A stretch of 64,000 nt of DNA from the NCBI GenBank assembly GCA_964472415.1, contig CAYYLC010000002.1, positions 32,470-96,469 of the forward strand. The letters run 5' to 3'. Under the pieces are notes generated by a model, which saw nothing but the letters and a program-made list of their open reading frames with translations, had not been told where the DNA came from and made no database searches. The stretch's first letter is position 1; each line of letters opens with the position of its first letter. The stretch is from an uncultured Gammaproteobacteria bacterium (GTDB lineage: Bacteria > Patescibacteriota > Microgenomatia > Levybacterales > GWA1-39-11). A program made the position numbers and the translations under genes. Below, piece after piece: positions 16,527 to 33,912 of the stretch.

Positions 16527-16859
16527 CTAGCTAAAATTCTCCAAGGAGCTTCCAACCACAGAAACGATAATACTAAATAAGAGTGCCCACCAAAATCCAT
16601 CGACAACAAATCCTGGAATAAATAGCTCTACAAGAAGTACTAATAACGCATTAATCACCAACAAGAATAATCCGAACGTTAGAATAGTTATCGGTAATGT
16701 AAGGATGAGAAGAATGGGCTTAATAAATGCATTTACAATTCCTAATACAATTGCGACAACGAGTGCTACAAAAAATGAGTCTATACTTACACCAGGCAAA
16801 ATCCACGCTGCAAGAAGTACTGCTACTACTTGAATAAAAATCCTTACAAAAAGATTCAT
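16527..16859 (-). CDS. DUF360/YvlD-like small membrane protein (putative holin superfamily IV)
   Basis: Three to four TM segments with a WILPG.S motif and FIKPILLILTLPITILTFGLFLLVINALL, typical of DUF360. Confidence 0.5.
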   Translation of the reverse strand: MNLFVRIFIQVVAVLLAAWILPGVSIDSFFVALVVAIVLGIVNAFIKPILLILTLPITILTFGLFLLVINALLVLLVELFIPGFVVDGFWWALLFSIIVSVVGSSLENFS

Positions 16860-16901
16860 AGAATCAGAATACCAAAGAATAAATTCATTCTCAACTTATC
16901 A

Positions 16902-17960
16902 CTAAAATGTTCGCTTCGTATTATAATCTAGAAGTGTTTTATACACATCTTTATATTCAGGCGAAATTTCTAATTGCCCAATAATACCTTGCGACTCATT
17001 ATAAAGGTTTTCTATGAGAGACTGTATTTCTGATCTTACCCCTAATTCTTCTGTCATCTCCCGAATCCTTAGAACATCTTGGTTCTTCAAGGAAGGATTT
17101 CCAAATATCTCTTCGAGGTATTTTCTTTCTTCTGGTGACGCTTTTTTTATAAGAAGACTTCGCATGAAAGTTTTTTTATTCTCTCGGATATCAGATCCTA
17201 TCGGTTTTCCTATCTTGCTCTCACTTCCAAATATCCCGATGTCATCATCTATAAGCTGAAAAATAAGCCCTATTTTTTCTCCCAATTTTTCCATCATCTG
17301 TATTTGGCTATCAGGCATCTCCGCTGCAATCGCACCAAGACAGAGAGGTAATGTAAAAGAATATCTCGCACTTTTATCAATATACATCCTCTGAATTTCT
17401 GCTCCATCAAATTCTTTCGAGAGAGCACCGTATTGAAAATCCAGCAACTGTCCAATTCCAACAATTCTCAATTCTCTCGTGTAAAACTGTAATAACTTCT
17501 GCAAATTTTTTTGGTCCGCATATGCGGCTAGCTCCTCCGCTATAAAAAGCGCTATATCTCCTACTACAATTCCCATAGAAATTCCGAAATGATCTGCATT
17601 TTGTATTTTTAAATTCCTTGCTTGATCTTTATACTTTGCAAATACTGTTTTCTCGCCACGGCGGAGTGTGTCATTATCCATAATATCATCATGGATGAGA
17701 AGCGCTGAGTGCATCAGCTCAAGAGAGGCAGCAATATTTAATAATTCTTTACTTGTCTCTTTTTTATAACTATTTACAGAAAGCAAAAAAAGAGATCCCC
17801 GAAGCAATTTGCCTTTTGTAGAAAAACTTCGAAGCGTTTCAAAAACATCAACTTCGGAATGCATCCGTTCGTCAAATTCTGTTTGTTTTTCTGAAAGAAC
17901 TTCCTGTATCCTTTCAGAAATTATCGTACGATAATATGCAAATAATTGTTTAAAATCCAT
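16902..17960 (-). CDS. Polyprenyl diphosphate synthase (trans-isoprenyl diphosphate synthase family)
   Basis: First DDxxD motif LIHDDIMDND and second motif FQLIDDDIGIF. Confidence 0.8.
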   Translation of the reverse strand: MDFKQLFAYYRTIISERIQEVLSEKQTEFDERMHSEVDVFETLRSFSTKGKLLRGSLFLLSVNSYKKETSKELLNIAASLELMHSALLIHDDIMDNDTLRRGEKTVFAKYKDQARNLKIQNADHFGISMGIVVGDIALFIAEELAAYADQKNLQKLLQFYTRELRIVGIGQLLDFQYGALSKEFDGAEIQRMYIDKSARYSFTLPLCLGAIAAEMPDSQIQMMEKLGEKIGLIFQLIDDDIGIFGSESKIGKPIGSDIRENKKTFMRSLLIKKASPEERKYLEEIFGNPSLKNQDVLRIREMTEELGVRSEIQSLIENLYNESQGIIGQLEISPEYKDVYKTLLDYNTKRTF

Positions 17961-17981
17961 GTAAAATCTTATTTTGCACTA

Positions 17982-18977
17982 TTATACCGTATTGATAGGG
18001 TTCCCCGTGAAGAAAGACGCTATATTGTCATGTGTTGTCTCAAGTATTTTTATAAGCGCCTCATAACTATTAAACGCATTATGTGGGGTTATCAGAACAC
18101 GCGGATGAGTACAGAGCATATGACCCTCTAGAACTGACTGCAATTTCTCTTTATCAAAGTTATGCGACAATAATTGCTTTTCTTCGTGCAAGACCGGCTC
18201 CTCTTCCAAAACATCGAGGCCAGCAGCGTATACTTTCCCTGAATCCAATGCCTCGAGAAGCGCTCCGCTATGAATAAGTCCGCCACGTGCAGTATTGATA
18301 ATAACACAATTATTTTTCATTTGAGAAAACTTTTCTTGAGAAAGAAAATGGTGTGTTTCTTTCGTATAAGGAATATGCAGAGAAACGACATCAGAATTTC
18401 CTAGAAGTACTGATAAATCGACATGACGGAACCCTAACCTTCTCTCTAGAGTCAGATCAGGATGCCGCGCATACGCAAGTACATTCATCCCAAACCCATT
18501 TGCAATTTCTATGACATGCTTCCCGATGGTCCCAATCCCAATCACACCTAATGTCTTTCCCCTTAATTCAAATCCAGTTAATCCTTCTGGGCTAAAATGA
18601 TTCTTCCGTGTTCGCTCAAATGACTCCTCAAGACGACGAGAAATCGCAAGCAGAAGTGCAAATGCATGCTCTGCTACTACGGTCTCTGCATACACTGGAA
18701 CATTTGAAACTATAATTCCACGCTCGCTTGCAGCCTTGATATCAATATGATCAAACCCTGTAGACATCGTAGTGATAAATTTTAAATTTGGGAGGGACTG
18801 TATCATCTCACGAGTTACCCGTGAGTATACAAATACTACGAGAACCTCAGTATTTTGAACTTCCGAGATAAGATCTGTAGATAATTCTTCATCAAAACAT
18901 GTCACACTATGTCCTTTAAATACATTCTGGAAATACTCTTGTTCTTGCTTGTCTGCTTCAAAAATAGTAATTTGCAT
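17982..18977 (-). CDS. D-isomer-specific 2-hydroxyacid dehydrogenase (LdhA/PGDH family)
   Basis: NAD-binding GKTLGVIGIGTIGKHV and catalytic region ...INTARGGLI...GLDVLEEEP... Confidence 0.75.
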   Translation of the reverse strand: MQITIFEADKQEQEYFQNVFKGHSVTCFDEELSTDLISEVQNTEVLVVFVYSRVTREMIQSLPNLKFITTMSTGFDHIDIKAASERGIIVSNVPVYAETVVAEHAFALLLAISRRLEESFERTRKNHFSPEGLTGFELRGKTLGVIGIGTIGKHVIEIANGFGMNVLAYARHPDLTLERRLGFRHVDLSVLLGNSDVVSLHIPYTKETHHFLSQEKFSQMKNNCVIINTARGGLIHSGALLEALDSGKVYAAGLDVLEEEPVLHEEKQLLSHNFDKEKLQSVLEGHMLCTHPRVLITPHNAFNSYEALIKILETTHDNIASFFTGNPINTV

Positions 18978-21413
18978 CTATTTTTCTAATATATAATTAT
19001 TATCATGATCAAGTGTCACAAAGATCTTTTCTCCCTTTCTAATTGTCTCTTCTAGAATCCCTCGGGAAATAAGATTCTCGATATGCTCCTCTATGTATCT
19101 TCTCACATTTCGGGCACCAAAGTCAGCATCAAATGCCTCACGAGAAATTTTAGCTATTGAACTTTCTGAAAAACTGATATCAATACTTTGTTGTAATAAT
19201 TTTTCTTTGAGATCCATAAGCATTAGGTCTGCAATTTTTATTACATGCTCTTTTGCCAAGGGATGAAACACAACAACATCGCTAAATCTATTGATGAGCT
19301 CTGGCCGGAATATTTCCTTTGTAAGGACGAACTCTATTAACTCTGTTTTTATATTCTCTTCTCCTGTTGCAATCTTCTGACGGATAAACTCACTTCCGGC
19401 ATTTGATGTTGCGATAATTATCGCATTAGAAAAAGAAACCTTTTTCCCTTTATTATTTGTCACAAATCCTTCATCAAGAATTTGTAGGAATACATCTAAA
19501 AGTCGCGTATTCGCTTTCTCAAATTCGTCAAGGAGCACCACTGAGAATGGATTTTTTACAATCTTATCTATTAAACTTTCTGAAAAACTCTGCTCTCCAG
19601 GCATTTCTCCCAATAGTTTTTTCATCGATTCCTCCGTCTGATATTCTGACATGTCAACTCGAATCATTTTCTTTTCATCGCCAAAATATTCCTTTGAGAG
19701 GAGTTTTGCCATCGTCGTCTTCCCCACACCACTGGGTCCTAAAAATAAAAATGACGCGATTGGTCCTTGGCTTTTTTTTAATCCGCTCCTTAATCGCCTT
19801 ACTGCATTCGATACTGCTGAAACTGCTTCATTTTGACCCACTAGTCGCTTATGAAGCGTGTCTTCTAGATTGAGTAATTTCTTCTTCTCCTCAACAGTAG
19901 GCGCAGACAAATTTACGCCAGTCTTCTCCACTATAAGCTCTTGCACGTCCGCTGCAGTAATTGTATTTCTTCCTGCATGAAATACTCGGACTATTGTGTC
20001 TTCCAGAAGTCGTATTGCAGAACCAGGAAGCAACAGATTTGACGAATATAAATTTGCAGAATTGATAATTTCCCGAACTGCTCCATACGTCACAATTACA
20101 TTCGAGCTTTTTTCCCTAATCTCAATATCATGAATTGCCATAAATAATGTAGTTTTTTCGTCTGGCTCATCAAGCGAGATCGCGTGAAAATGAATCTGAA
20201 CTGAAGATTTTGGTGCAATAAAATCTTTATATGCTTGTGGTGTCGTCGTTCCGATAATCTGCACACGGCTACTTTCTAAATATGGCTCAAGTGCCCCTGA
20301 AATATCAAAATTAAATCCACCCCCACCAAAAATATTCTCTATGCTCTCCAAAAATACAATAACATTTCCCGCATGAGAAACTTCAGTAAAAATATTATTC
20401 AATCTCCTCTCTATCTCTCCCCTATCCTTTGCACCGGAAATCAACCTATCAATAAACAAAAAATATATCCTTTTTCTCTTGAGATTTTTCGTGATCTCTC
20501 CTTTATGCGCATCATACGCAACGTCCATCACTAACGTCGTCTTCCCAACGCCCGGATTCCCAATCAAAAGAACATTACTTGAAGATCCTCGCGAAAGGCT
20601 TTCTATCATTTGCCGATATTCTTTTTCTCTCCCCACTGCTTTTGGTTCATATCCAAGGCGTATTACTTCACTCGTAAAATCAGATGTATATTTTTTTGTA
20701 GCAGGAGTCCAACCATGTATCAATTGGTCGAAAATACCACTTCCATTAAAAGTACCCTGCAACACTTCCGTCGGGTCTTCAATACGAAATCTTTTCCTCA
20801 CCCAAAACAAAATAACCAACATATCTTGAGCCATTAACCCCTCTTGTTCTAAGATTTTTACACTTGGCTCTTGAAGTAAAATATAAGCAACTAATACATC
20901 TACTGCATGGATATATTTTCCTTGAATCATCTGCACCAATTCCCCAGCCTTTTTTAAAAGTTCATCTTTGGAAAGATTTATATCGACAAGCTGAAGTGAA
21001 GAATTTATTTTTTGAATAGCAAATCTTCCTTCTTTTGTACGGGCAATCTGTACAACAAGCTCATGGCTTGTCTGTGGTGACAGCATGTCTGCTCGAACAT
21101 TAAACAACGTAGCTTCATAGAGATTTTCAGCATTAGTTACTGTCCTTGCCGGATTTAGGGTACGGAGTTTTTTAATAAATAATTCTTGGAGGATTAACAC
21201 AAAAAGGAACGGTGAGAGAATCAAGAGTATCCGAACATTATCAAAAAAAAGTATCCCAATTACAAAAACCAGCATGAATAATACTCCTCGCACAAACAAT
21301 GCTTCTTTTGTATTCAAAATTTTATAGAGTTTAAAATGATTAGAGCCCAACATAGAAAAGATATAATAATAACCCTGGAAGTATAAAAAAGAGTGCAATG
21401 ATAAAAAGTTCAA
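18978..21413 (-). CDS. ClpA/ClpC-like double-AAA+ ATPase with N-terminal transmembrane segments; no M-domain; no obvious ClpP-docking tripeptide
   Basis: Two Walker A motifs (LIGNPGVGKTT and LFLGPSGVGKTT) and a Clp_N-like region. Hydrophobic segments lie at the N-terminus (VLFMLVFVIGILFF, LLILSPFLFVLIL). A short linker separates AAA1 from AAA2. No [IVL]GF loop seen between ATSNAGS and FRPELINRF. Confidence 0.7.
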   Translation of the reverse strand: MNFLSLHSFLYFQGYYYIFSMLGSNHFKLYKILNTKEALFVRGVLFMLVFVIGILFFDNVRILLILSPFLFVLILQELFIKKLRTLNPARTVTNAENLYEATLFNVRADMLSPQTSHELVVQIARTKEGRFAIQKINSSLQLVDINLSKDELLKKAGELVQMIQGKYIHAVDVLVAYILLQEPSVKILEQEGLMAQDMLVILFWVRKRFRIEDPTEVLQGTFNGSGIFDQLIHGWTPATKKYTSDFTSEVIRLGYEPKAVGREKEYRQMIESLSRGSSSNVLLIGNPGVGKTTLVMDVAYDAHKGEITKNLKRKRIYFLFIDRLISGAKDRGEIERRLNNIFTEVSHAGNVIVFLESIENIFGGGGFNFDISGALEPYLESSRVQIIGTTTPQAYKDFIAPKSSVQIHFHAISLDEPDEKTTLFMAIHDIEIREKSSNVIVTYGAVREIINSANLYSSNLLLPGSAIRLLEDTIVRVFHAGRNTITAADVQELIVEKTGVNLSAPTVEEKKKLLNLEDTLHKRLVGQNEAVSAVSNAVRRLRSGLKKSQGPIASFLFLGPSGVGKTTMAKLLSKEYFGDEKKMIRVDMSEYQTEESMKKLLGEMPGEQSFSESLIDKIVKNPFSVVLLDEFEKANTRLLDVFLQILDEGFVTNNKGKKVSFSNAIIIATSNAGSEFIRQKIATGEENIKTELIEFVLTKEIFRPELINRFSDVVVFHPLAKEHVIKIADLMLMDLKEKLLQQSIDISFSESSIAKISREAFDADFGARNVRRYIEEHIENLISRGILEETIRKGEKIFVTLDHDNNYILEK

Positions 21414-21675
21414 TTATGATAAGGATAAGGAAAAAAAATCCAACCAAACTCAAAAGGAAAGTCTTAATGAAAATCCCAAATACGATAGAAAATAATACTA
21501 ATCCTTTCCGATACTCATTCTTCAAAGGTTTAAAGAATGTTTGCAAAAGAAGACCTACGGAAAATAATTTTGCAAGATATGAGTTAAGTTTTACGAAAAA
21601 ATCTATTACCCCAAACCCTACATCATGATACCAAAAAACAAGAAGATCCAATGGATACATGAGGGCAGTTTTCAT
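21340..21675 (-). CDS. Small polytopic membrane protein ORF overlapping the start of the Clp-like gene (separate gene or frameshifted N-terminus)
   Basis: 111 aa, very hydrophobic (FFLILIIIELFIIALFFILPGLLLYLF). It overlaps the downstream Clp ORF by 74 nt in a different frame. Confidence 0.25.
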   Translation of the reverse strand: MKTALMYPLDLLVFWYHDVGFGVIDFFVKLNSYLAKLFSVGLLLQTFFKPLKNEYRKGLVLFSIVFGIFIKTFLLSLVGFFFLILIIIELFIIALFFILPGLLLYLFYVGL

Positions 21676-21724: not shown

Positions 21725-22591
21725 CTAAAACCATCCTTTTTTCGAACTCTCTTTCTCAAACTCCTCAATAAGTTTTTTCTGCTTCGAATTCAGCTTTTTA
21801 GGGATTTGAATTTTTATTTGCACAAAATGACTCCCCTTTTGACTACTATTAATCCGCTTTATCCCCTTATCCTTTATGCGAATAAGTGCACCCGGCTGAG
21901 TTCCCTGAGGAATCTTCAGTTTAATCGTTCCATCAAGTGCTCGAATTTCAGTAATTCCACCAAGTAAAGCGAGTGTAAAAGAAATCTCTTCTTCAGAAAA
22001 AATATCAGATCCCCGTCGTTCAAAAAAATCATGGGGTGCAACATCAATCACCACATCAAACTCCTCAAATCGAATCCGTTGCCCACTACTGATTCCAGCA
22101 GGGATTTTTATACTCCGCTCTTTCCCTTCAACTGCCACCTTCTTTGTTACCCCTTTTACCGCCTCCATAAATTCAATCCTGAGTGAATACACCGGCTTTC
22201 TCTGCCCAAAAGGACTTCCACCACCAAAGAATTGCTCAAAAATATCAAATGGATCATTAAACCCAAAATCTTGATTATTTGCATTCTGTCCAGATGAGTA
22301 ATAATACCGGAATGGTCCTCCTCCGCCACCGCCAAATGGCCCTCCCCCATACGACCCACCAGCATCACCTCTTGGCCCTTCACTTGATCCATACTGATCA
22401 TAATTTTGCCGCTTTTGAGGATTTGAAAGCACTTCATATGCCTCATTGATTTCCTTAAATTTTCCTTCCGCATCCTTTGATTTGTTCTTATCCGGATGAT
22501 ATTCTACAGCTAGCTTTCTATATGCTTTTTTCAATTCATCAGCAGTAGCATTTTTTGATACTCCTAAAACTTGATAATAATCTTTCGCCAT
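21725..22591 (-). CDS. DnaJ-family co-chaperone lacking the zinc-finger domain (type II / CbpA-like)
   Basis: J-domain [33 protein letters not shown], a G/F-rich region, then C-terminal beta domains with no CxxCxGxG repeats. Confidence 0.8.
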
Positions 22592-22629: not shown

Positions 22630-24459
22630 TTACTGACTCGTACAGATTAGAGGGCATAACTGTATACTACCTTCACCTTGATTACACGATGGATCAAAAT
22701 CACACCGATAATATTTTATGGGCGTAGGAGTAGCAGTAGGCTTTTTTGCCGCTTCTGTAGGAGGCTGTATAGGATCATTAGTCGGTAATGGCCCAGAAGT
22801 AGGCTGGATTACTACCGTAACAGTAGGCTGTGCGATATCTCTCGTAACCCGAATGGGAACCTGAATAGAGGGGCTATTCTGATCAAGAATAAGGTCTTCT
22901 GTACTTATCCCTTGGTAGCCTATGCGAAATGTCCCCGGAAAAAGGCTATCGAAAATAAAGGTTCCATCAGTAAGCGTCGCAGTCGTATCAGAATATGCTC
23001 CTGAAAGCTCAACTATCTGATTCTCCATAGGTGAATCTCCAGCATCAAAGGAGCCACTATTATTAGTATCTTCATATATAATACCTTGAATATAATATTG
23101 CGCAACACCAGGGGTCAGTGTTACTTGAGGGTCAGGGGTCAATGTAGGTATTGTAATACTCCCACTCCGTCCACAATTTGCTATCGCATTTGCGATATTC
23201 AGGCGTGGACCAATAGAAGACGATGAGGAAGTGCCATCCGCATTACTCACTAAGCAACTTTCCACTTCAGCTGATGTAAGTCCTGAATTCACAGAGAGCA
23301 AGAGTGCTGCAGCACCTGCTACATGAGGCGCTGCCATTGACGTTCCTTGCATCACTTTATAACTAGCACCAGGAATAGTAGATAATATATTTACACCAGG
23401 AGCCGAAATATCAACAGTATCTCCATAATTACTAAATGATGCTTTTCCATCATTTTGTGTCGACGCACCTACCGAAATTACTCCTTGGCATGAAGCGGGA
23501 GTAAACCCTACTGCATCCGTATTACTATTCCCTGCTGCGACAACTACAACGACCCCTTTAGAAATGCCTTCATTAATTGCATTTTGATACGACGACTGCG
23601 GAGCGCACGACCCTCCTCCACCAAGACTCATATTAATCACTCTCGCTCCATTAGTTATTGCATATTCTATCCCTGAAACAATACTCTGAGTAGTACCCCC
23701 GCATCGACCGTATGCTGGACCCATGGTCTTTACGGGCATAATACGAACATCCCAATTCACGCCCACAACCCCCACATCATTATCACCCACTGCACCAACT
23801 GTTCCTGCGACATGGGTTCCGTGACCACATTCATCAGATGGATCGGAGTCATTGGAATAAAAATCGTATCCTGAAGTCAACCTACCAGATAAGTCTGGAT
23901 GCGAGAGATCAATTCCACTATCAATCACCGCGACAGTGATCGCACTCGATCCGATCGTAGTATCCCATGCGACCGGCGCTTGTATTTTTTCTAGTCCCCA
24001 CAAACTAGAATACTGAGGATCATTTGGAATACGAAATGGTTCCATAATAAAGTTCGGTTCAGAAGCAAGTATTTCATTAATATGAGAAAGCTCTTCTTGA
24101 AGCACTCCAATATCTTTTCCTTCTTCAAGCTTCAATAAATAATACCTACTCAATAATCCCTCCATGGATTCATACGCCTTCTCCTGACTCTCTACTCCGA
24201 ACGCTTTCAGCCTTATCTCTAGATCTTGTCTCTGAGAATCACTTAACTCATGAGGCGCTTTATCTTCTCTATAGTTAACAAGTAATTCATAAGGAACATA
24301 TGGCGCTACCGGAGGAATCGCAACATACGGATCACGACTCAAAAAGTATCCTACTACAAAGCTTCCTATCCCCAAAAAAAGAACTCCGGAAAGAGCGACT
24401 ACTAGTTTCTTATTCTTGAAATATTTAGAACGTTTCAAATTGCGTATTTGGCTCGGCAT
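22630..24459 (-). CDS. Subtilisin-like serine protease (S8) with N-terminal TM, I9-like propeptide, CarboxypepD_reg-like domain and Cys-rich C-terminal tail
   Basis: Catalytic Asp (VAVIDSGID), His (HGTHVAGT) and Ser (GTSMAAPHVAGAAALL). The C-terminus reads YYRCDFDPSCNQGEGSIQLCPLICTSQ. Confidence 0.85.
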   Translation of the reverse strand: MPSQIRNLKRSKYFKNKKLVVALSGVLFLGIGSFVVGYFLSRDPYVAIPPVAPYVPYELLVNYREDKAPHELSDSQRQDLEIRLKAFGVESQEKAYESMEGLLSRYYLLKLEEGKDIGVLQEELSHINEILASEPNFIMEPFRIPNDPQYSSLWGLEKIQAPVAWDTTIGSSAITVAVIDSGIDLSHPDLSGRLTSGYDFYSNDSDPSDECGHGTHVAGTVGAVGDNDVGVVGVNWDVRIMPVKTMGPAYGRCGGTTQSIVSGIEYAITNGARVINMSLGGGGSCAPQSSYQNAINEGISKGVVVVVAAGNSNTDAVGFTPASCQGVISVGASTQNDGKASFSNYGDTVDISAPGVNILSTIPGASYKVMQGTSMAAPHVAGAAALLLSVNSGLTSAEVESCLVSNADGTSSSSSIGPRLNIANAIANCGRSGSITIPTLTPDPQVTLTPGVAQYYIQGIIYEDTNNSGSFDAGDSPMENQIVELSGAYSDTTATLTDGTFIFDSLFPGTFRIGYQGISTEDLILDQNSPSIQVPIRVTRDIAQPTVTVVIQPTSGPLPTNDPIQPPTEAAKKPTATPTPIKYYRCDFDPSCNQGEGSIQLCPLICTSQ

Positions 24460-24874
24460 TTACTACTTCTGGCAACAGATAGATTTGCTGTGCTACTTCT
24501 TCTATATTAGTACCTTGCTGAAACTTTAACAAGTAATATCTGCTCAAAGCTCCTTCTTCTGCTTCATACGCCCTCTCTTGAGAAATAACCCCAAAGCTCT
24601 CAAAGAGACTCAAAATCTCTTGCTGCCGTTCCGGCACTAAATTATCAAACTCCTGACCCTCAGAATATTGAATAATAAGCTCCTCTTCTACACGGGGTGC
24701 ATCAGGAAATGTAGGAAGCGGTGCTTTTTGCGTCGGCGTAGGAATCAATAGGACATGATCTTCAGACTCTTCCACGCTACTCGCCAGAAAAAATAACACC
24801 ACTGGGATTAATACTGCAACACCGAGAAGGATGACTACTATTTTTCTATTTTTTACAGAAAGTTTTTGTATCAT
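24425..24874 (-). CDS. Membrane-anchored stand-alone subtilisin-propeptide (inhibitor I9)-like protein, paralogous to the N-terminus of the downstream S8 protease
   Basis: TM (IVVILLGVAVLIPVVLFFLA), then ELIIQYSEGQEFDNLVPERQQEILSLFESFGVISQERAYEAEEGALSRYYLLKF... This aligns with the S8 gene segment ELLVNYREDKAPHELSDSQRQDLEIRLKAFGVESQEKAYESMEGLLSRYYLLKL. It overlaps the S8 gene by 35 nt. Confidence 0.6.
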   Translation of the reverse strand: MIQKLSVKNRKIVVILLGVAVLIPVVLFFLASSVEESEDHVLLIPTPTQKAPLPTFPDAPRVEEELIIQYSEGQEFDNLVPERQQEILSLFESFGVISQERAYEAEEGALSRYYLLKFQQGTNIEEVAQQIYLLPEVVNAEPNTQFETF

Positions 24875-27855
24875 TGTGTTGTTTGAGAATCTCCATTTAC
24901 TGCCATAGTTAATGCCTCACCAGTCGCAGGGTCAACAGGAGGAGGGGCTGGAGTTGGATCTTGAGTAATTGGTGCTGCCGGATCAACAATTATTCCACTA
25001 TTTTGCGGAGGTAGCGGTTGACCAGGAGGATACATTCCTTGATTCATTTGAGGATTTCCACCCTGCTGAAGATTGTATACCCCATTTTGCGGCACTACCT
25101 GCCCTCCCTGTTGCACACCATCTTGCCTAAGAGACGGATCCAATTGCGTAGGGTTTTGTTGGGCAGTTGGATTATTAGGGTCTACTGGAATTGTACCTTG
25201 TTGAGGAGGAGCTCCCATCTCCTGCTGCTGATTCTGTGAATTCAATGATTTTTTAAAAGTAAATTGTTTCGTTTGCTCATCATAATCTACGATAATTATA
25301 TCTCCTTGAACAAATTTCTTCCCAATAATATCCATGCTTATCGGGTTTTCTATAACTGACTGGATGAGTCGCCTCAACGGACGGGCACCATACACAGGAT
25401 CAAATCCATCCTTTGCTAAAATCTCAACTGCTTTCTCCGTTATCTCGAGCCCGAATCCTTGCTCTTTCAAAAGTTTCTGCGTATTCTTAATCCCCAACTT
25501 CGAGATCGCATTCATATATTTTTGAGTCAATGGTTTAAAAATGGCAACACCATCAAACCTATTTATAAGTTCTGGTCTAAAGAATTTGATAAGCTCATCC
25601 ATAAGATTCTTGGAGAGCTCCTGGAATACTTTCTCATCAATTTTCTCCTCATCTGTCATTCCTGCTTCCACACTTGAGCTCGGTGGCTGTTCATTTTGAG
25701 AATTTTGATTTTCAGCACTAGGCACAGCTTGAGCCTGTTCAGCACTTACCTCTGCCCCTTTTTCCTTATTATCTGCTACAGAAAGCTCCTTTACTTCTTT
25801 TTGTGTAATTAATGTTTCTTGAATCAATCTGCTCCCAATGTTTGATGTTGCAATAACAATCGTGTTTTTAAATGAAATCGTATTTCCTTTATTATCAGTT
25901 AGCCTTCCATCCTCAAGGAGCTGAAGAAGGATATTAAATACATCCGGGTGTGCTTTCTCTACCTCATCAAGCAACACTATAGAATATGGCTTATGCCTGA
26001 CCGCCTCAGTTAACTGTCCGCCCTCTTCATACCCTACATATCCAGGAGGTGCACCAATGAGCTTTGCAACCTCATGTTTTTCCATATATTCAGACATATC
26101 GAGCCTGACCATCGCATCATCTCTTCCAAATAAAATTTCTGCGAGTGTTTTTGCAAGCTCTGTTTTTCCGACTCCTGTAGGACCCAAAAACATAAATGAT
26201 GCTATTGGCCTATTTGCCGAAGCGAGACCAATCCTCCCACGACGCACTGCTTCTGAGACTGCCTTTACTGCCTCTTCTTGATCAATTAGCCTTTGATGAA
26301 TCAAATCCTCAAGCTGCAAAAGCTTTTTACTTTCATCCTCAGTAAGTTTTGTAACAGGAATTCCTGTCCATGCACTTACAACCTTTTCTATATCAGCCCT
26401 AACAACTTGTGTATCTTTTCGCTTCCCCTCAGCAGCCATAAGCTTTACCTCCGCTGCTGCCTCATCTATTAAATCAATTGATTTATCAGGAAGGTGCCGC
26501 TCACCGATATATTTTTTCGAGAGTTTTACTGAATATTCTATTGCCTCAGGAGTGATAGTTACATTATGAAACTTTTCATATTTTACCTGTAAAACCTTCA
26601 TCATTTCTATTGCCGTCTCGACGCTTGGCTCTTCTACAATTATCGCCTGGAAACGTCTCTGAAATGCCTTGTCTTTTTCAAAGAACTTTCTATATTCTGC
26701 AGTAGTCGTAGTCCCAATAATCTGCAATTGCCCTCGTGCAAGATATGGCTTAATGATGTTTGATGCATCCATCGCACCATCTGTTGAACCAGCGCCAATA
26801 AGCGTATGAATCTCGTCAATAAATAATAGATATTTCCCTTCAGAAAGCATCACTTCTTTAATGACATTCTTCAATCGCTCTTCAAATTCTCCCCTATGCG
26901 AAGCCCCAGCAATAAGAGAAGTTAAATCAAGTTGAATTATTTTCTTATCTTGAAGTTCTTTTGGGAGTTTTTTCTGGACCATTAACTGTGCAAGTGCTTC
27001 AACAATTGCTGTTTTTCCAACTCCTGCCTCCCCAATTAAAATTGGATTATTTTTACTCCGCCTGAGCAATATATGCACAGTGCGCTCTATTTCTTTTTCA
27101 CGGCCGACAACTGGATCAAGCTTTCCGTTTTGCGCCTCAAGCGTTAAATCGATTCCGAACTCCTCAATAACACTTTTTTTACCGGTCTTGAACTTTGTAT
27201 CTTTTTGGATTGCCTCCTCAAAAGCCTTTTTTTCTATTCCTTTCGCCGAAAGAAGTTGTGCAGCTGACTCAGAAGAAAACAGCGCAAGCAATAAATCTTC
27301 TGGTGAAACAAAGCTTGTTCCTCGTTTCTGAGAATTCTGATACGCTTCATCAAAGATCCTCTGTGTTGCTTCTGATAAAATTGGAGGAGTTGTTGCAGTT
27401 CCCGTTTGCTGATGTGTTTCAATTTCCTGTGCGAGCAGCGCCACATCTACTTGATGCTTCTGGAGAATTTTATATATCTCTCGATCATGCGTTAACGCAA
27501 GAAGAAGCATATCAGGCTCAATTGTAGGATGCTGAAAACGTCTGGCGTCATTCTGAGCCTGCTGAAGAATTTGATTGGATCTAGAATCCAAATGGGAAAG
27601 AGCATTAACGTTTTGTCGTTTTGACGGATCCATAGTTGTTCCCGCAATACCTTGATTTGGGGCCATTCCATTTTGCATTTGAACTTGAGGGGGATATCCT
27701 TGCAAAGGCATCTGTGGTGCTCCCTGAACCATCTGATTTTGCTGAGGATCACCTTGCCCTACTACTTGATTATTTGGCGCAAATAGACCCTGCGGGTTCT
27801 GTGGTGCAGGCTTCGCCTCATCAAATTGTTTTTTCTTAAATAAGTCTCCAAACAT
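24871..27855 (-). CDS. ClpA/ClpC-like double-AAA+ ATPase with Gln/Asn/Pro-rich low-complexity N- and C-terminal extensions
   Basis: Clp_N domain, then AAA1 Walker A IGEAGVGKTA and AAA2 Walker A FLGPTGVGKTE, with no M-domain. The first ~75 aa (PQNPQGLFAPNNQVVGQGDPQQNQMVQGAPQMPLQGYPPQVQMQNG) and the last ~120 aa are Q/N/P-rich. Confidence 0.8.
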   Translation of the reverse strand: MFGDLFKKKQFDEAKPAPQNPQGLFAPNNQVVGQGDPQQNQMVQGAPQMPLQGYPPQVQMQNGMAPNQGIAGTTMDPSKRQNVNALSHLDSRSNQILQQAQNDARRFQHPTIEPDMLLLALTHDREIYKILQKHQVDVALLAQEIETHQQTGTATTPPILSEATQRIFDEAYQNSQKRGTSFVSPEDLLLALFSSESAAQLLSAKGIEKKAFEEAIQKDTKFKTGKKSVIEEFGIDLTLEAQNGKLDPVVGREKEIERTVHILLRRSKNNPILIGEAGVGKTAIVEALAQLMVQKKLPKELQDKKIIQLDLTSLIAGASHRGEFEERLKNVIKEVMLSEGKYLLFIDEIHTLIGAGSTDGAMDASNIIKPYLARGQLQIIGTTTTAEYRKFFEKDKAFQRRFQAIIVEEPSVETAIEMMKVLQVKYEKFHNVTITPEAIEYSVKLSKKYIGERHLPDKSIDLIDEAAAEVKLMAAEGKRKDTQVVRADIEKVVSAWTGIPVTKLTEDESKKLLQLEDLIHQRLIDQEEAVKAVSEAVRRGRIGLASANRPIASFMFLGPTGVGKTELAKTLAEILFGRDDAMVRLDMSEYMEKHEVAKLIGAPPGYVGYEEGGQLTEAVRHKPYSIVLLDEVEKAHPDVFNILLQLLEDGRLTDNKGNTISFKNTIVIATSNIGSRLIQETLITQKEVKELSVADNKEKGAEVSAEQAQAVPSAENQNSQNEQPPSSSVEAGMTDEEKIDEKVFQELSKNLMDELIKFFRPELINRFDGVAIFKPLTQKYMNAISKLGIKNTQKLLKEQGFGLEITEKAVEILAKDGFDPVYGARPLRRLIQSVIENPISMDIIGKKFVQGDIIIVDYDEQTKQFTFKKSLNSQNQQQEMGAPPQQGTIPVDPNNPTAQQNPTQLDPSLRQDGVQQGGQVVPQNGVYNLQQGGNPQMNQGMYPPGQPLPPQNSGIIVDPAAPITQDPTPAPPPVDPATGEALTMAVNGDSQTTQ

Positions 27856-27904: not shown

Positions 27905-30292
27905 TTATGCATCTTGCTCTCCTGAATTATTATCTTTATTTTGCTCAATTGGCAATTCTCGTCGCATAACCATCTCAGCAGAAGCTGATTCTTGCCGTGG
28001 CTTATTTTTAAGAAGCATATCATCTTCCTCACGCTTTTGGGTTAATGCTTCTAGCACCTCACGACCAGCAGCTTGCTTTGCCTTGAGATATGCAATAACC
28101 TCTGCTTTTGAAAATCCTCCAATTAACAAGAATGGCAACACATCCGAAACTGTTTCCATGCCTTTTTGTATTTGTGTTTGATCTGGAGAGCTTAAGAGAT
28201 TTATTGCTTCTTCTATCTTTTGACCATCCTGAGTAACCCACTCTTCCTTTGAAAGCCTCTTTCCATCAAGCGGTGCTGGTGGTTCCATATTGGCGTAATT
28301 TTCCTTCCATATATTCTTTACTTCTTCATACTCATCCAAGCTTACTTGTTGAACACGATTGACTACCGGCAGTGATGCTTGTGCAATAGCACTTACCCCT
28401 TCTTGCGGAAGTACTTTTTCTGCAAGCTGGCTTCCTTTCTCTTTTTCTGCAAATAATTTCTCCTTTACTTTATCGAGAAGTGATTGTCGCTCTTCCTCAT
28501 TAATTGTCTCACTTGCAACCTTATTACTCATGTCCAAAACATAGGTTGCGAGCGGATTCCCTTGACTCTGCGCAGAGAGTAACTCTTCACGAATAGATTG
28601 TGCCTTTTGTCGCTCTTGGGGAGAAAGTGCTCTTGTAGGAGACGCGATATGCTGAAGCGTAAGATTCAAACGATTCTTTACCATCTCGCCTGCCATTCGT
28701 CCTCGCATACCAACTTGTGATCCAAGACGTGACGCACTCAAAATAGAAGATGCAAGAGGGTCTCCCTTCTGCTGCATTTGAACCAATTTTTCTTTAATAG
28801 TTGTAAACTTCTCACGTTCAATAACAGGAGCTGTCGCAGGAGATGAGATTTGACTCAGCTTATTTGTTACCTCAGTGCGCTGCTGCTGAATAGTCTGATT
28901 TTTTGTCAATGAGGCTGATTCCATACGCGCAATATCACGCATTTTTGGAATTGAGAGATTTGCAAGTCGCATTACCTCTGTCGTTTCATTTGTAACTGCA
29001 GAAGTCCTTTGTTGAGAAGATACCCCTTTATTTACATCAGCACTCGTTATTTTCTTAACAGGTATCTGCATTTGCCGCTTATTTGAAAATGGCAAACTCA
29101 TAGCACGCCCAGCTCCTGCCGGACTAATTGGCGGTGGGGGAGGAGGAGATCCAGGAGGAGATCCAGCAGGTTGATTGATAAATGGAATGTTTGTCCTTGC
29201 TATTCGCCGATACAACGCAGTCTCGGTAAATGATGCATTATTTATGTAATCCAAAAATATCTGCAACAACAGCCAGGGAAGGAGGATCACTACCCAGAGC
29301 ATTAAGAGCGCTACGACATACTGTGCAAATGTGTCACTCAAATTTACAGAATTTGTAATTCCGATTCGCTGCGCTGGACCTCCAAGTAAAATACTAATTG
29401 CTGTCGGATATACTACCTGACCTTGTTCTACTCCAGAAAAATCAAATCCTAATGGAATTCTATCTCGCCACATTCCAACTAAACCATGGAGGAAAATCGC
29501 AAAAAGAGGAGCGTATAAAAGCCATCGGAAAAATTCTCCCACCCATACTTTGGCAGTATTTCTCAGTGGAGAAAAAAAGATTAAAAGCGGAAAAACAGGC
29601 GAGATGATAAGAAAAAACCATAATATAATTTTCCTGATTAGGAGAATACCTGACATCACATAATATGTCACCGCAGTAATCCGAACAAGTAAAAGCGAAA
29701 TATAGGCAGACTCATCATATTGGATACCTGCCTTTCGATAACCCATAAATTGATAATCAAATCCTATATAGAGAAGGTCTGTTGGATCAATCAATCGTTC
29801 ATTCTGAGACTCTGGATCTGTCGTTGCAAGAAAGAAACCTTGAATAACATCAAAAAACTGATAAAGAAATCTCACAATCGCAAAGGACAAAACAATAAAA
29901 AGGAGAATTATGATGAATCGAGGAATAAACCGCACAATGGTAAGATTCTGCCCTCTTGTAATAATCATAATAAACGCAGCAACAAGAATAAAAAGTACGA
30001 TTAACGCAAGAACTATTCGAAGAATCTCGCTCCAAAATACTGCTAGAGGATTCGTTGCAGCATCTTCTCCAAGATCAATCCACTCATAATTCTGCAATGT
30101 CCATTCTAAAAACGCATTTGCACGAGCTGCCGTTTTCCCAATAAACGTTACCTCTTGATCTTCTCTCCAATCGGCTAACACATCGGGCACAGGGGTAGTG
30201 CCCACAACTTGTGCTGAAGCAGTGCCGGGAAAGGAAAAGACACCTGATAAAAATAGGACTGTGGTAAACAATATGGGCAGTAATCGTTTCAT
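27905..30292 (-). CDS. Large polytopic membrane protein, VirB6/TrbL-like (putative type IV secretion-like channel component) with a long coiled C-terminal cytoplasmic domain
   Basis: Signal peptide, about 6-7 TM helices over residues 90-350, a poly-Pro linker (SPPGSPPPPPPISPAG), then a ~400-aa Gln/Glu/Lys-rich domain. It lies immediately downstream of a VirB2-like pilin gene. The family assignment is by architecture. Confidence 0.35.
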   Translation of the reverse strand: MKRLLPILFTTVLFLSGVFSFPGTASAQVVGTTPVPDVLADWREDQEVTFIGKTAARANAFLEWTLQNYEWIDLGEDAATNPLAVFWSEILRIVLALIVLFILVAAFIMIITRGQNLTIVRFIPRFIIILLFIVLSFAIVRFLYQFFDVIQGFFLATTDPESQNERLIDPTDLLYIGFDYQFMGYRKAGIQYDESAYISLLLVRITAVTYYVMSGILLIRKIILWFFLIISPVFPLLIFFSPLRNTAKVWVGEFFRWLLYAPLFAIFLHGLVGMWRDRIPLGFDFSGVEQGQVVYPTAISILLGGPAQRIGITNSVNLSDTFAQYVVALLMLWVVILLPWLLLQIFLDYINNASFTETALYRRIARTNIPFINQPAGSPPGSPPPPPPISPAGAGRAMSLPFSNKRQMQIPVKKITSADVNKGVSSQQRTSAVTNETTEVMRLANLSIPKMRDIARMESASLTKNQTIQQQRTEVTNKLSQISSPATAPVIEREKFTTIKEKLVQMQQKGDPLASSILSASRLGSQVGMRGRMAGEMVKNRLNLTLQHIASPTRALSPQERQKAQSIREELLSAQSQGNPLATYVLDMSNKVASETINEEERQSLLDKVKEKLFAEKEKGSQLAEKVLPQEGVSAIAQASLPVVNRVQQVSLDEYEEVKNIWKENYANMEPPAPLDGKRLSKEEWVTQDGQKIEEAINLLSSPDQTQIQKGMETVSDVLPFLLIGGFSKAEVIAYLKAKQAAGREVLEALTQKREEDDMLLKNKPRQESASAEMVMRRELPIEQNKDNNSGEQDA

Positions 30293-33853: not shown

Positions 33854-33880
33854 TTAGCACTAATATAGCATGACTGCTAA
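33854..33880. promoter_or_regulatory. CIRCE operator (HrcA binding site) upstream of hrcA-grpE-dnaK
   Basis: TTAGCACTA-ATATAGCAT-GACTGCTAA versus consensus TTAGCACTC-N9-GAGTGCTAA, one mismatch per half-site. Confidence 0.8.
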
Positions 33881-33912
33881 GTCTTGTCAAGAGCCTCCAT
33901 GATGTCAAATCA

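What the first reader, a model, noticed from the sequence alone, without database searches (positions are those of the whole stretch)
18978..21675. Membrane-anchored ClpA/C-like double-AAA+ unfoldase lacking M-domain and ClpP-docking loop
The 811-aa protein has both AAA+ modules and a Clp_N-like region, but its N-terminus carries 2-3 hydrophobic TM-like segments. A separate, very hydrophobic 111-aa ORF (21340-21675) overlaps its 5' end in another frame. The linker between AAA1 and AAA2 is short (no ClpB-type coiled-coil M-domain). The loop between ATSNAGS and FRPELINRF has no IGF/LGF/VGF tripeptide, so it is unlikely to dock on ClpP. A membrane-tethered stand-alone unfoldase next to the DnaJ-like gene and an S8 protease suggests a dedicated envelope protein-quality-control or extraction machine.
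Basis: partly seen in the sequence, partly recalled or inferred. Interest (0 to 1): 0.55.

Follow-up and report, generated by a model that had tools for sequence, protein, structure and literature searches.

The report
Membrane-anchored pore-loop-less Clp ATPase pair
The gene encodes a membrane-anchored relative of the Clp/Hsp100 protein-unfolding ATPases that has lost the residues such machines use to pull on proteins. It always sits next to a tiny, highly conserved membrane protein, forming an undescribed two-gene module of candidate-phyla-radiation bacteria, often at the end of the heat-shock operon.

Summary
The gene (minus strand) most likely starts at the ATG at 21353, giving 791 aa rather than 811. 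It encodes two N-terminal transmembrane helices, a remote Clp_N-like helical domain, and two AAA+ modules joined by a short ClpA-type junction. It has no M-domain and no IGF loop.

The 111-aa overlapping ORF is not a frameshift remnant. It is a separate, strongly conserved gene with the invariant loop TFFKPLKNEYRKGLV. It lies directly upstream of the ATPase in 69 of 69 informative genomes and is never fused to it.

The "unfoldase" reading is weakened. Across about 68 family members (38-63% identity, Patescibacteria):
- D1 has lost Walker B (DE to ES/EN/PN/QN), both arginine fingers and the pore-loop tyrosine.
- D2 keeps all catalytic motifs but lacks GYVG, and its pore loop is the least conserved part of D2.

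The pair often follows hrcA-grpE-dnaK-dnaJ, preceded by a CIRCE-like element here and in two other loci, and/or a canonical-like Clp ATPase and an S8 protease.

Best reading: a D2-driven, probably non-threading membrane remodelling ATPase with an obligate small membrane cofactor, working in stress proteostasis. It is a new variant of a known kind. No description was found in the literature searched.

The parts
18978..21353 (-). Gene for the 791-aa membrane-anchored Clp/Hsp100 paralogue (stop codon included). The start is the ATG at 21353, not the TTG at 21413.
   Evidence: ORF list. The database protein P0001 is 100% identical at 791 aa, and homologue N-termini align to this Met.
21340..21675 (-). 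Gene for the 111-aa small membrane partner. Its invariant loop is T46-F-F-K-P-L-K-N-E-Y-R56. Its stop overlaps the ATPase start codon by 14 nt.
   Evidence: It lies directly upstream of the ATPase in 69/69 informative genome loci. AF2 pLDDT is 92.6, with helices 4-37, 40-45 and 57-109.
21159..21308 (-). N-terminal transmembrane helical hairpin (residues 16-65). Includes the family-invariant R22 and E57 and the LQELFI motif.
   Evidence: Hydropathy, AF2 helices 16-35 and 40-65, and invariant columns.
20790..21122 (-). Helical N-domain (residues 78-188), a remote derivative of the Clp_N domain.
   Evidence: AF2 pLDDT above 95. Foldseek top hits are Clp/Hsp100 N-domains but weak. hhalign gives 15% probability. 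No Pfam Clp_N hit.
19974..20648 (-). D1 AAA+ module, predicted catalytically dead. Walker A GNPGVGKTT (20535-20561) is kept. The pore loop reads AKDRG instead of KYRG (20403-20441). Walker B reads LES instead of IDE (20328-20363). The Arg fingers read IH instead of RR (20178-20210).
   Evidence: Alignment to ClpC, family alignment, counts and coordinates checked.
18981..19886 (-). D2 AAA+ module plus the D2-small domain, with catalytic motifs intact. These are Walker A GPSGVGKTT (19713-19739), Walker B LLDEFEKA (19512-19541), sensor-1 ATSN (19392-19418), Arg finger NRF (19284-19310) and sensor-2 GAR (19092-19121).
   Evidence: Pfam AAA_2 and ClpB_D2-small.
19560..19616 (-). D2 pore-loop position. 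It reads LLGEMPGEQSFSESLIDKI where canonical Clps have GAPPGYVGYEEGG. The gripping Tyr is absent and the loop varies across the family.
19311..19394 (-). Loop between sensor-1 and the Arg finger (SEFIRQKIATGEENIKTELIEFVLTKEI). It has ClpB-like length and no IGF/LGF/VGF tripeptide.
33854..33880 (.). CIRCE-like inverted repeat (TTAGCACTA-N9-GACTGCTAA). It overlaps the best sigma-70-like promoter of the region, just upstream of hrcA, at the head of the co-directional gene string that ends with this module.
   Evidence: (0.02 expected by chance). Equivalent elements lie upstream of hrcA in L039 and L061.

Best explanation
The gene is one half of a conserved two-gene membrane module of Patescibacteria (Levybacteria/Microgenomates and relatives).

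**The two halves**
- A ~110-aa membrane protein with an invariant, basic, predicted cytoplasmic juxtamembrane loop (TFFKPLKNEYRKGLV).
- A 791-aa Hsp100 paralogue of ClpA-type architecture (N-domain, D1, short junction, D2, D2-small). Its start codon overlaps the small gene's stop codon, suggesting translational coupling. It is held at the membrane by an N-terminal two-helix hairpin.

**Shown by sequence**
- D2 keeps every catalytic motif.
- D1 keeps at most a P-loop and has lost Walker B, the Arg fingers and the pore-loop Tyr.
- The D2 pore loop has lost GYVG and is poorly conserved.
- There is no M-domain and no ClpP-docking loop.

**Inferred**
- The hairpin is N-in/C-in, so the D1 face of a presumed hexamer faces the membrane.
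- D1 is a structural or assembly ring and D2 is the only motor.
- The ATPase does not processively thread polypeptides. It does not feed ClpP, and it does not cooperate with DnaK in the ClpB manner.
- It uses D2 ATP hydrolysis for non-threading (or short-stroke) remodelling at the cytoplasmic face of the membrane. It acts on or through its obligate small membrane partner.
- It is part of the stress-proteostasis gene set: the HrcA/CIRCE dnaK operon, a canonical-like Clp ATPase and a membrane-anchored S8 protease.
- In working principle it is closest to Torsin plus its membrane cofactors, or to Pex1/Pex6 plus its membrane anchor, rather than to ClpA, ClpB or ClpC.
For: **Family and start site**
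- 68 clusters of ~790 aa at 38-63% identity all begin with the same hairpin.

**Motif states across the family**
- The D1 Tyr column has 0/68 aromatic residues (N 47, S 7, D 6, T 5, H/A/G 1 each).
- D1 Walker B 'DE' is replaced by EN, PN, QN or ES.
- D1 'RR' is lost in all members.
- The D1 Walker A Thr/Ser is replaced in 14/68.
- D2 Walker A, Walker B, sensor-1, Arg finger and sensor-2 are nearly invariant.
- D2 pore-loop conservation is 0.38, against 0.74-0.76 in its flanks and 0.89 in canonical Clps. Twenty-five of 68 members have no aromatic residue in the loop, and some have the loop deleted.

**Architecture**
- ClpA-like contiguous alignment, no M-domain, no IGF.
- All NCBIfam Clp equivalog scores are far below cutoff, for example ClpB 441 vs 1232 and ClpA 391 vs 993.
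- The N-terminal module occurs only in this architecture. A profile search of 1.84 billion representatives gave 143 hits. Full-length hits are 778-909 aa and most of the rest are shorter than 450 aa (taken to be fragments).

**The partner gene**
- It has 17 invariant positions across 37 diverse sequences.
- It is always a stand-alone protein of about 105-120 aa.
- It lies directly upstream in 7/7 contexts found through the ATPase.
- It has the ATPase directly downstream in 69/69 informative loci found through the small protein.

**Context**
- In the window, hrcA(CIRCE)-grpE-dnaK-unk795-Clp994-prodomain-S8-dnaJ-small-ATPase are co-directional.
- Tight hrcA-grpE-dnaK-dnaJ-small-ATPase strings occur in L039, L061 and L071, with CIRCE-like sites in L039 and L061.
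- In Wolfebacteria, grpE-dnaK-x-dnaJ lies upstream, with one opposite-strand gene between dnaJ and the pair.
- Forty of 70 loci have proteostasis genes upstream.

**Precedent**
- Torsins are Hsp100-related and membrane-associated, lack aromatic pore loops and depend on membrane cofactors (PMC5425593).
Against: - No experiment exists, and the mechanism is inferred from motif loss.
- 43 of 68 members (including this one, with 'SF') still have some aromatic residue in the D2 loop. A non-canonical grip cannot be excluded.
- The geometry (pore entrance facing the membrane, as in FtsH or Msp1) is exactly what an extraction machine would need.
- Hexamer formation, a physical interaction with the small protein and co-transcription with the heat-shock genes have not been shown.
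- No CIRCE lies directly upstream of the pair where it is detached from the dnaK operon. In 30 of 70 loci no proteostasis gene was seen upstream.
- Topology rests on hydropathy, the positive-inside rule and AF2, not on a dedicated predictor.
- AF2 draws the partner's residues 57-109 as one 53-residue helix, so its number of membrane spans is unclear.
Confidence: 0.5

Rival explanations
1. It proposes a membrane-tethered stand-alone unfoldase or extractase. The ATPase would thread membrane or envelope proteins through its pore using non-canonical loops, then hand them to DnaK/DnaJ or to proteases.
For: - The N-terminal anchor puts the D1 pore entrance at the membrane, as in FtsH or Msp1.
- The D2 motor is intact.
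- An aromatic residue persists somewhere in the D2 loop in 43/68 members.
- The neighbourhood is a proteostasis one.
Against: - Both Ar-Phi pore-loop motifs are absent family-wide.
- The D2 loop is the least conserved segment of D2 and is deleted in some members.
- D1 lacks Walker B, the Arg fingers and the pore Tyr.
- In characterised Clp/Hsp100 unfoldases these tyrosines are conserved and needed for processive unfolding (PMC5425593; otherwise from established knowledge).
Confidence: 0.2
2. A dedicated single-client machine. The ATPase's only target would be the small membrane protein. ATP hydrolysis in D2 would assemble, disassemble or gate an oligomer of the small protein, for example a stress-responsive membrane pore or scaffold. 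The ATPase would bind the protein's invariant basic loop.
For: - The genes are strictly adjacent in 69/69 loci, and start/stop overlap or 0-13 nt gaps suggest translational coupling.
- The loop TFFKPLKNEYRKGLV is extremely conserved, as are charged residues within the hydrophobic helices (K71, E89).
- The ATPase hairpin and N-domain carry invariant charged residues: R22, E57, D152 and R186.
Against: - There is no evidence that the small protein oligomerises or forms a pore.
- It has no homology to any known channel or holin family.
- This model overlaps with the best explanation rather than excluding it.
Confidence: 0.15
3. A degenerate membrane-anchoring or regulatory subunit. It would form mixed rings with, or dock, the neighbouring canonical-like Clp ATPase (994 aa). 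This would recruit that soluble unfoldase to the membrane, as inactive paralogues do in Pex1/Pex6 or Torsin/LAP1 pairs.
For: - The two proteins share 34% identity and the same ClpA-type architecture.
- A Clp994-like gene lies upstream on the same strand in 26/70 loci.
- D1 is degenerate, as in scaffold-type paralogues.
Against: - D2 keeps all catalytic residues, including its own Arg finger, so it is not a dead scaffold.
- The Clp994-like gene is absent from the 9-kb upstream flank in most loci.
- No interaction data exist.
Confidence: 0.1
4. An artefact or decay product. The gene would be a frameshifted single gene (small ORF plus ATPase), or a decaying Clp pseudogene.
For: - The two ORFs overlap in different frames.
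- T-runs occur nearby.
- Many catalytic motifs are lost.
Against: - The small gene is separate in every homologous locus, with varying overlaps and gaps, and is never fused in 152 clusters.
- The family is conserved down to 38% identity, with its own strongly conserved motifs such as NIENIFGGGGF and LLDEFEKA.
- The identical protein is present in independent assemblies.
Confidence: 0.02
5. An anti-phage defence ATPase related to the ClpB-like DolB of the Dodola system.
For: PADLOC DolB matches at 5e-38.
Against: - The match covers only the generic D2 module (residues 488-768).
- The small partner and the neighbouring genes have no PADLOC or PHROG hits.
- The context is housekeeping and heat-shock genes, conserved across lineages.
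Confidence: 0.02

Closest known systems
ClpA (class I Clp/Hsp100, E. coli type)
   Same: - Same domain order: N-domain, D1, short junction, D2, D2-small.
- The sequence aligns end-to-end with ClpA without a net indel (query 130-787 to ClpA 85-741).
- The D2 catalytic motifs are the same.
   Different: - No IGL/IGF ClpP-docking loop.
- An N-terminal TM hairpin is present.
- The N-domain is only remotely Clp_N-like.
- D1 Walker B, Arg fingers and pore Tyr are lost, and the D2 GYVG is lost.
- The NCBIfam ClpA score is 391 against a cutoff of 993.
ClpB/Hsp104 and ClpC
   Same: - These give the best sequence scores: ClpC 1.5e-111 and ClpB 2e-108 in the PDB search, and TIGR03346 at 1e-131.
- The loop after sensor-1 has ClpB-like length and no IGF.
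   Different: - No coiled-coil M-domain (ClpB) and no M-domain/UVR (ClpC).
- No pore-loop tyrosines.
- D1 is predicted dead.
- It is membrane-anchored.
- Scores are far below the family cutoffs (441 vs 1232).
Torsin ATPases with LAP1/LULL1 (eukaryotic ER and nuclear envelope)
   Same: - Both are Hsp100-related AAA+ proteins held at a membrane by an N-terminal hydrophobic segment.
- Both lack aromatic pore loops.
- Torsins depend on a membrane-embedded cofactor (PMC5425593), and here a small membrane protein is always encoded alongside. This is a resemblance in working principle only.
   Different: - Torsins have a single AAA+ module, lack their own Arg finger and get it from an AAA-like cofactor. 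They are luminal and eukaryotic.
- Here there are two modules and D2 has its own Arg finger.
- The partner here is a 110-aa helical membrane protein, and the ATPase must be cytoplasmic.
Pex1/Pex6 with the Pex15/Pex26 anchor; also membrane-anchored AAA proteins FtsH, Msp1 and Bcs1 (from general knowledge)
   Same: - Pex1/Pex6 is a type II AAA ATPase with an inactive D1 ring and an active D2 ring, working at a membrane with a small membrane protein.
- The pore entrance faces the bilayer.
   Different: - Pex1/Pex6, FtsH and Msp1 keep aromatic pore loops and thread substrates.
- They belong to the classical AAA clade, not to Clp/Hsp100.
- In Pex1/Pex6 the anchor is on a separate protein only, whereas here the ATPase itself is anchored.

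Membership tests
Clp/Hsp100 class I (double AAA+ ring) superfamily | Two tandem AAA+ modules, the second of AAA_2 type followed by the ClpB_D2-small domain. | tested here: met
   Pfam AAA_2 at 1.2e-46 and ClpB_D2-small at 5.2e-20. D1 aligns to ClpC, ClpB and ClpA D1.
Clp/Hsp100 class I (functional unfoldase) | Conserved aromatic pore-loop residues: KYRG in D1 and GYVG in D2. | tested here: not met
   D1 reads AKDRG and D2 reads GEMPGEQSF. The D1 Tyr column has 0/68 aromatic residues, and the D2 loop is variable or deleted.
Clp/Hsp100 class I (functional unfoldase) | A catalytically competent D1, with Walker B 'DE' and Arg fingers 'RR'. | tested here: not met
   The positions read LES and IH here, and EN, PN or QN with no RR in all relatives.
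ClpB/Hsp104 | A coiled-coil M-domain inserted in D1-small (the DnaK-coupling element). | tested here: not met
   The ClpB alignment splits into two stretches, with D2 resuming at ClpB residue 526. The query junction is about 40 residues and ClpA-like.
ClpB/Hsp104 | A score above the NCBIfam equivalog cutoff (TIGR03346). | tested here: not met
   440.9 bits against a cutoff of 1232.1.
ClpA/ClpC/ClpE (ClpP-coupled) | An IGF/IGL/VGF ClpP-docking tripeptide in the loop after D2 sensor-1. | tested here: not met
   The loop reads SEFIRQKIATGEENIKTELIEFVLTKEI. Canonical ClpCs in the same alignment show LGF at this place, and none of the 68 relatives does.
ClpA/ClpC/ClpE (ClpP-coupled) | A double-repeat Clp_N N-terminal domain (PF02861). 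| tested here: inconclusive
   No Pfam hit. hhalign gives 15% probability over one repeat. Foldseek's top hits are Clp N-domains, but with E >= 0.055 and TM 0.2-0.3.
ClpA/ClpC/ClpE (ClpP-coupled) | A ClpP partner encoded in the genome. | not testable with these tools
   tblastn found no ClpP in the 64-kb window or in L001-L010, the ten loci held at that point. The query was the E. coli ClpP sequence recalled from memory. The rest of the genome is not available.
ClpC | A short M-domain or UVR-like coiled coil between D1 and D2. | tested here: not met
   About 50-60 ClpC residues (416-469) have no counterpart in the query.
Torsin | A single AAA+ module that lacks its own Arg finger and is activated by an AAA-like membrane cofactor. 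| tested here: not met
   The query has two modules. The D2 Arg finger (FRPELINRF) is conserved. The partner is a 111-aa helical protein. The resemblance is functional only.
Dodola defence system (DolB) | A ClpB-like DolB encoded together with DolA in a defence context. | tested here: not met
   The DolB hit covers only generic D2. The partner has no PADLOC hit. The context is housekeeping.

The most novel reading that the evidence does not exclude
This would be a bacterial counterpart of the Torsin principle. An Hsp100-derived ATPase would have given up substrate threading altogether. Together with an obligate ~110-aa membrane cofactor, it would use ATP to remodel or gate a membrane assembly. 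For example, it could pull on the cofactor's invariant basic loop to open, close or disassemble a small-protein oligomer during heat or envelope stress. That would be a previously unrecognised class of prokaryotic membrane AAA+ machine, specific to ultra-small CPR bacteria.
Probability: 0.25. Interest if true: 0.75.

Novelty: new variant of a known kind. Interest (0 to 1): 0.57.

Why it matters
- Clp/Hsp100 proteins are textbook threading machines. All well-studied bacterial members are soluble and keep pore-loop tyrosines.
- This lineage is conserved and under purifying selection. It is membrane-anchored, has a dead D1 ring and a live D2 ring without the canonical gripping loop, and is always paired with a tiny invariant membrane protein. 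That would show Hsp100 motors have been repurposed in bacteria for non-threading work, as Torsins have in eukaryotes.
- It would also identify a lineage-specific component of stress proteostasis in Patescibacteria. These organisms have minimal genomes and a poorly understood envelope biology.
- Practically, these genes are currently annotated as 'ATP-dependent Clp protease ATP-binding subunit ClpC', 'AAA family ATPase' or 'hypothetical protein'. The first of these labels is probably misleading.

Tried and rejected
- **Frameshift fusion of the 111-aa ORF to the ATPase.** Rejected. The small gene is separate in all loci and is never fused.
- **TTG start at 21413 (811 aa).** Rejected in favour of the ATG at 21353.
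- **Pfam, NCBIfam, PHROGs and PADLOC for the small protein.** No hits.
- **Defence-system reading (DolB).** Rejected as generic D2 homology.
- **Independent CIRCE element directly upstream of the pair in 80 loci.** None was found. CIRCE-like sites occur only upstream of hrcA.
- **Promoter and terminator scan of 16-34 kb.** Uninformative apart from the hrcA promoter. Counts were at or below shuffled expectation.
- **ClpP search by tblastn in the window and in L001-L010 (the ten loci held at that point).** Nothing was found, but this says nothing about the rest of the genome.
- **A TM7x transcriptome paper.** It looked useful for ClpP in CPR, but the ClpP genes it cites carry APY09 locus tags, which I take to be the host's, so it is not used.
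- **Rfam scan of the window.** No hits.
- **Literature searches** for a membrane-anchored or TM-containing Hsp100 in CPR/Patescibacteria. No description was found.


Full report
**1. What is in the sequence**

The mechanical ORF 18978-21413 on the minus strand (811 aa, TTG start) exists. The real start is almost certainly the ATG at 21353.
- The database holds the identical protein as a 791-aa gene product on a 233-kb contig (P0001).
- About 68 homologues begin at the aligned methionine.

This ATG overlaps the TAA of the upstream 111-aa ORF (21340-21675) by 14 nt, in the sequence ATGTTGGGCTCTAA.

**2. Anatomy of the ATPase**

- *Membrane hairpin.* Hydropathy shows one long hydrophobic block near the N-terminus. 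An AlphaFold2 model of residues 1-240, built on a 51-sequence alignment, has mean pLDDT 87 and above 94 up to residue 190. It resolves the block into two helices, 16-35 and 40-65, joined by a 4-residue turn. A compact helical domain follows at 78-188.
- *Topology.* The AAA+ modules need cytoplasmic ATP, and two spans return the chain to the starting side. I therefore infer an N-in/C-in hairpin with almost nothing exposed outside. A dedicated topology predictor was not available.
- *N-domain.* It gives no Pfam Clp_N hit. hhalign against canonical N-domains gives only 15% probability over one repeat. In Foldseek nearly all of the top 50 PDB hits are Clp/Hsp100 N-domains, but they are weak (best E 0.055, TM 0.2-0.3). 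I read this as a strongly diverged derivative of Clp_N, not a bona fide one.
- *Junction.* Downstream, the protein aligns to ClpA end-to-end without a net indel. The alignments to ClpB and ClpC break where their M-domains sit. It is 34% identical, contiguously, to the neighbouring 994-aa Clp gene, which has the same ClpA-type junction.
- *ClpP-docking loop.* The loop between ATSNAGS and FRPELINRF has no IGF-type tripeptide, here or in any relative. Canonical ClpCs in the same alignment show LGF at that place.

**3. The motif states change the interpretation**

I aligned 68 family members (38-63% identity to the query) with canonical Clps.

D1:
- It keeps a P-loop (GNPGVGKTT here). The Thr/Ser is replaced in 14 of 68 members.
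- Walker B 'DE' is ES here and EN, PN or QN elsewhere.
- The double Arg finger 'RR' is gone in all members.
- The pore-loop Tyr of KYRG is never aromatic (N 47, S 7, D 6, T 5, H/A/G 1 each).
- D1 has its own strongly conserved motif (NIENIFGGGGF), so it is under selection, but not for hydrolysis.

D2:
- It keeps Walker A, Walker B (LLDEFEKA), sensor-1 (ATSN), the Arg finger (NRF) and sensor-2 (GAR) almost invariantly.
- The GYVG pore loop is replaced by a short variable segment (GEMPGEQSF here).
- That segment is the least conserved part of D2: 0.38 mean top-residue frequency, against 0.74-0.76 in its flanks and 0.89 in canonical Clps.
- It lacks any aromatic residue in 25 of 68 members and is deleted in a few.

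Every NCBIfam Clp equivalog scores far below its cutoff, for example ClpB 441 vs 1232 and ClpA 391 vs 993. So the protein has one live ring, one dead ring, and no canonical substrate-gripping loops.

**4. The small ORF is the real partner**

- *Adjacency, starting from the ATPase.* In seven independent contexts found through the ATPase, a 104-118-aa gene lies directly upstream. These include distant members (P0065, P0069, and a Wolfebacteria protein P0073). The spacing runs from a 32-nt overlap to a 13-nt gap. In L009 the gene was simply not called.
- *Conservation.* Its homologues form 152 clusters, with listed lengths of 89-141 aa (mostly 105-120). None is fused to an ATPase. Thirty-seven diverse sequences share 17 invariant positions, concentrated in T46-FFKPLKNEYR-56.
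- *Structure.* AF2 (pLDDT 92.6) gives helices 4-37 and 40-45, an extended loop exactly at the invariant motif, and a long hydrophobic helix 57-109. The basic loop is predicted to be cytoplasmic and juxtamembrane. This is an inference from the positive-inside rule.
- *Adjacency, starting from the small protein.* I used the small protein as a probe on one genome per GTDB species and found 70 loci. Informative titles name Levybacteria/Levyibacteriota, Patescibacteria group and Woykebacteria. Levyibacteriota belongs to the Microgenomates group. In 68 loci the family-specific N-terminal region of the ATPase follows directly. One more (L027) has it on reading the ORFs. In the last, the contig ends. 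That makes 69 of 69 informative loci.
- *Exclusivity of the N-terminal module.* A profile of the ATPase's N-terminal 240 residues, searched against 1.84 billion representative proteins, found only 143 hits. The full-length ones are 778-909 aa and most of the rest are shorter than 450 aa (taken to be fragments). The hairpin-plus-N-domain module therefore exists only in this architecture.

The frameshift idea is refuted. The two genes form an obligate pair.

**5. Context**

In the window the pair closes a 17-kb co-directional string:

hrcA - grpE - dnaK - a 795-aa unknown - a 994-aa canonical-like Clp - a 149-aa prodomain paralogue - an S8 protease - dnaJ - small gene - ATPase - 2-hydroxyacid dehydrogenase - polyprenyl synthase - PF04020 protein.

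- A CIRCE-like inverted repeat lies just upstream of hrcA. It has 2 mismatches, with 0.02 expected by chance. It overlaps the best promoter-like site of the region, TTGACA-17-TATATT.
- Across the 70 genome loci, dnaJ is upstream on the same strand in 25, and directly adjacent in 9.
- A Clp994-like gene is upstream in 26 loci and an S8 protease in 14.
- At least one of these appears in 40 loci, although only 47 loci have 8 kb or more of upstream sequence.
- Compact hrcA-grpE-dnaK-dnaJ-small-ATPase strings occur in L039, L061 and L071. CIRCE-like sites lie upstream of hrcA in L039 and L061.
- In a Wolfebacteria contig, grpE-dnaK-x-dnaJ lies upstream of the pair, with one opposite-strand gene between dnaJ and the pair.
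- No CIRCE lies directly upstream of the pair where it is detached from the operon.
- The downstream dehydrogenase/polyprenyl synthase/PF04020 block is conserved in 20 of 70 loci. It is absent in more distant lineages, so I treat it as lineage synteny.

**6. Mechanism**

Shown: the motif states, the anchor, the obligate gene pairing, and the recurrent heat-shock and protease neighbourhood.

Inferred:
- A ring whose D1 face looks at the membrane.
- D1 as an assembly ring and D2 as the only motor.
- No ClpP docking and no ClpB-type DnaK coupling.
- No processive threading, because both Ar-Phi loops are missing and the D2 loop is unconstrained.

The most likely function is ATP-driven, non-threading remodelling at the inner face of the membrane, on or through the small partner, as part of stress proteostasis (confidence about 0.5).

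The closest working analogues are:
- Torsins. These are Hsp100-related and membrane-associated, lack aromatic pore loops and depend on membrane cofactors (PMC5425593).
- Pex1/Pex6 with its membrane anchor, which has an inactive D1 and an active D2 (general knowledge).

Rivals:
- A single-client machine that gates or assembles the small protein (0.15).
- A membrane tether or mixed-ring partner for the neighbouring Clp (0.1).
- A pseudogene or frameshift (0.02).
- A defence ATPase (0.02). The PADLOC DolB hit covers only generic D2.

**7. Novelty**

- Sources name these proteins 'ATP-dependent Clp protease ATP-binding subunit (ClpC)', 'AAA family ATPase' or 'hypothetical protein'.
- Five literature searches found no description of a TM-anchored Hsp100 in CPR bacteria.
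- It clearly belongs to the Clp/Hsp100 superfamily. It fails the defining features of ClpA, ClpB and ClpC and of a functional unfoldase.
- I rate it a new variant of a known kind.

**Limits**

- There are no experiments.
- The genome outside the window could not be checked for clpP.
- No dedicated topology predictor and no multimer modelling were available.
- Co-transcription with the heat-shock genes is not shown.

Noticed in passing
window 24871-27855 (-): The neighbouring 994-aa Clp ATPase is itself unusual.
- It has Clp_N and intact D1 and D2 motifs, with GYVGY in D2.
- Its junction is ClpA-type with no M-domain, and it has no IGF tripeptide.
- A ~60-residue low-complexity insertion sits at the IGF-loop position.
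- Its D1 pore loop reads SHRG (His for Tyr).
- It has Q/P-rich N- and C-terminal extensions.
- It scores below all NCBIfam Clp cutoffs (ClpB 888 vs 1232).

   Followed up: partly
window 27905-30292 (-): A 795-aa ORF lies between dnaK and the 994-aa Clp gene. It has no Pfam, PHROG or PADLOC hit. A homologue is found upstream on the same strand in 23 of 70 related loci, usually next to the Clp994-like gene. It may be a lineage-specific partner of that ATPase.
   Followed up: partly
window 24425-24874 (-) and 22630-24459 (-): The 149-aa ORF upstream of the S8 protease is a stand-alone paralogue of the protease's own N-terminal membrane anchor plus prodomain. It is 37% identical over 145 aa (E 2e-22), with a weak Fervidolysin_NPro-like hit. 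It might act as a separate membrane-anchored propeptide or inhibitor. It overlaps the Clp gene by 4 nt and the protease gene by 35 nt.
   Followed up: partly
window 33854-33890: A CIRCE-like operator (TTAGCACTA-N9-GACTGCTAA) overlaps a near-consensus promoter (TTGACA-17-TATATT, with TG). It lies immediately upstream of hrcA, whose likely start is the ATG at 33830 rather than the mechanical TTG at 33908.
   Followed up: yes
window 16527-18977 (-); loci L011-L024 and others: A block of D-2-hydroxyacid dehydrogenase, polyprenyl synthase and a PF04020 ('Phage_holin_4_2') membrane protein follows the ATPase. The dehydrogenase start directly abuts the ATPase stop (18977/18978). The dehydrogenase is conserved downstream in 20 of 70 loci. 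Whether the linkage is functional is unknown.
   Followed up: partly
window 21725-22591 (-): The DnaJ next to the pair has a J-domain and the DnaJ C-terminal domain, but no CXXCXGXG zinc-finger hit and a G-rich linker. That makes it class-B-like. The Wolfebacteria DnaJ in L010 has the zinc finger.
   Followed up: no
loci L011-L078 (record titles): Many contigs carry this Patescibacteria-type module but are titled 'uncultured Gammaproteobacteria bacterium' (binchicken TPA assemblies). A few carry other unrelated names (Sulfotelmatobacter, Lysobacterales, Methylomirabilota, Limnocylindrales, Acidiferrales). These are probably placeholder or mis-binned labels rather than a true wide distribution.
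   Followed up: no
loci L008 and L010: In the most distant family members the small partner is still present directly upstream. These are P0069 (827 aa) and the Wolfebacteria protein P0073 (836 aa). Its otherwise invariant loop has diverged, to LFQPWKNERRKGY and HFGEPLYQDRTIIGY. This could be used to look for co-variation with the ATPase hairpin or N-domain.
   Followed up: no
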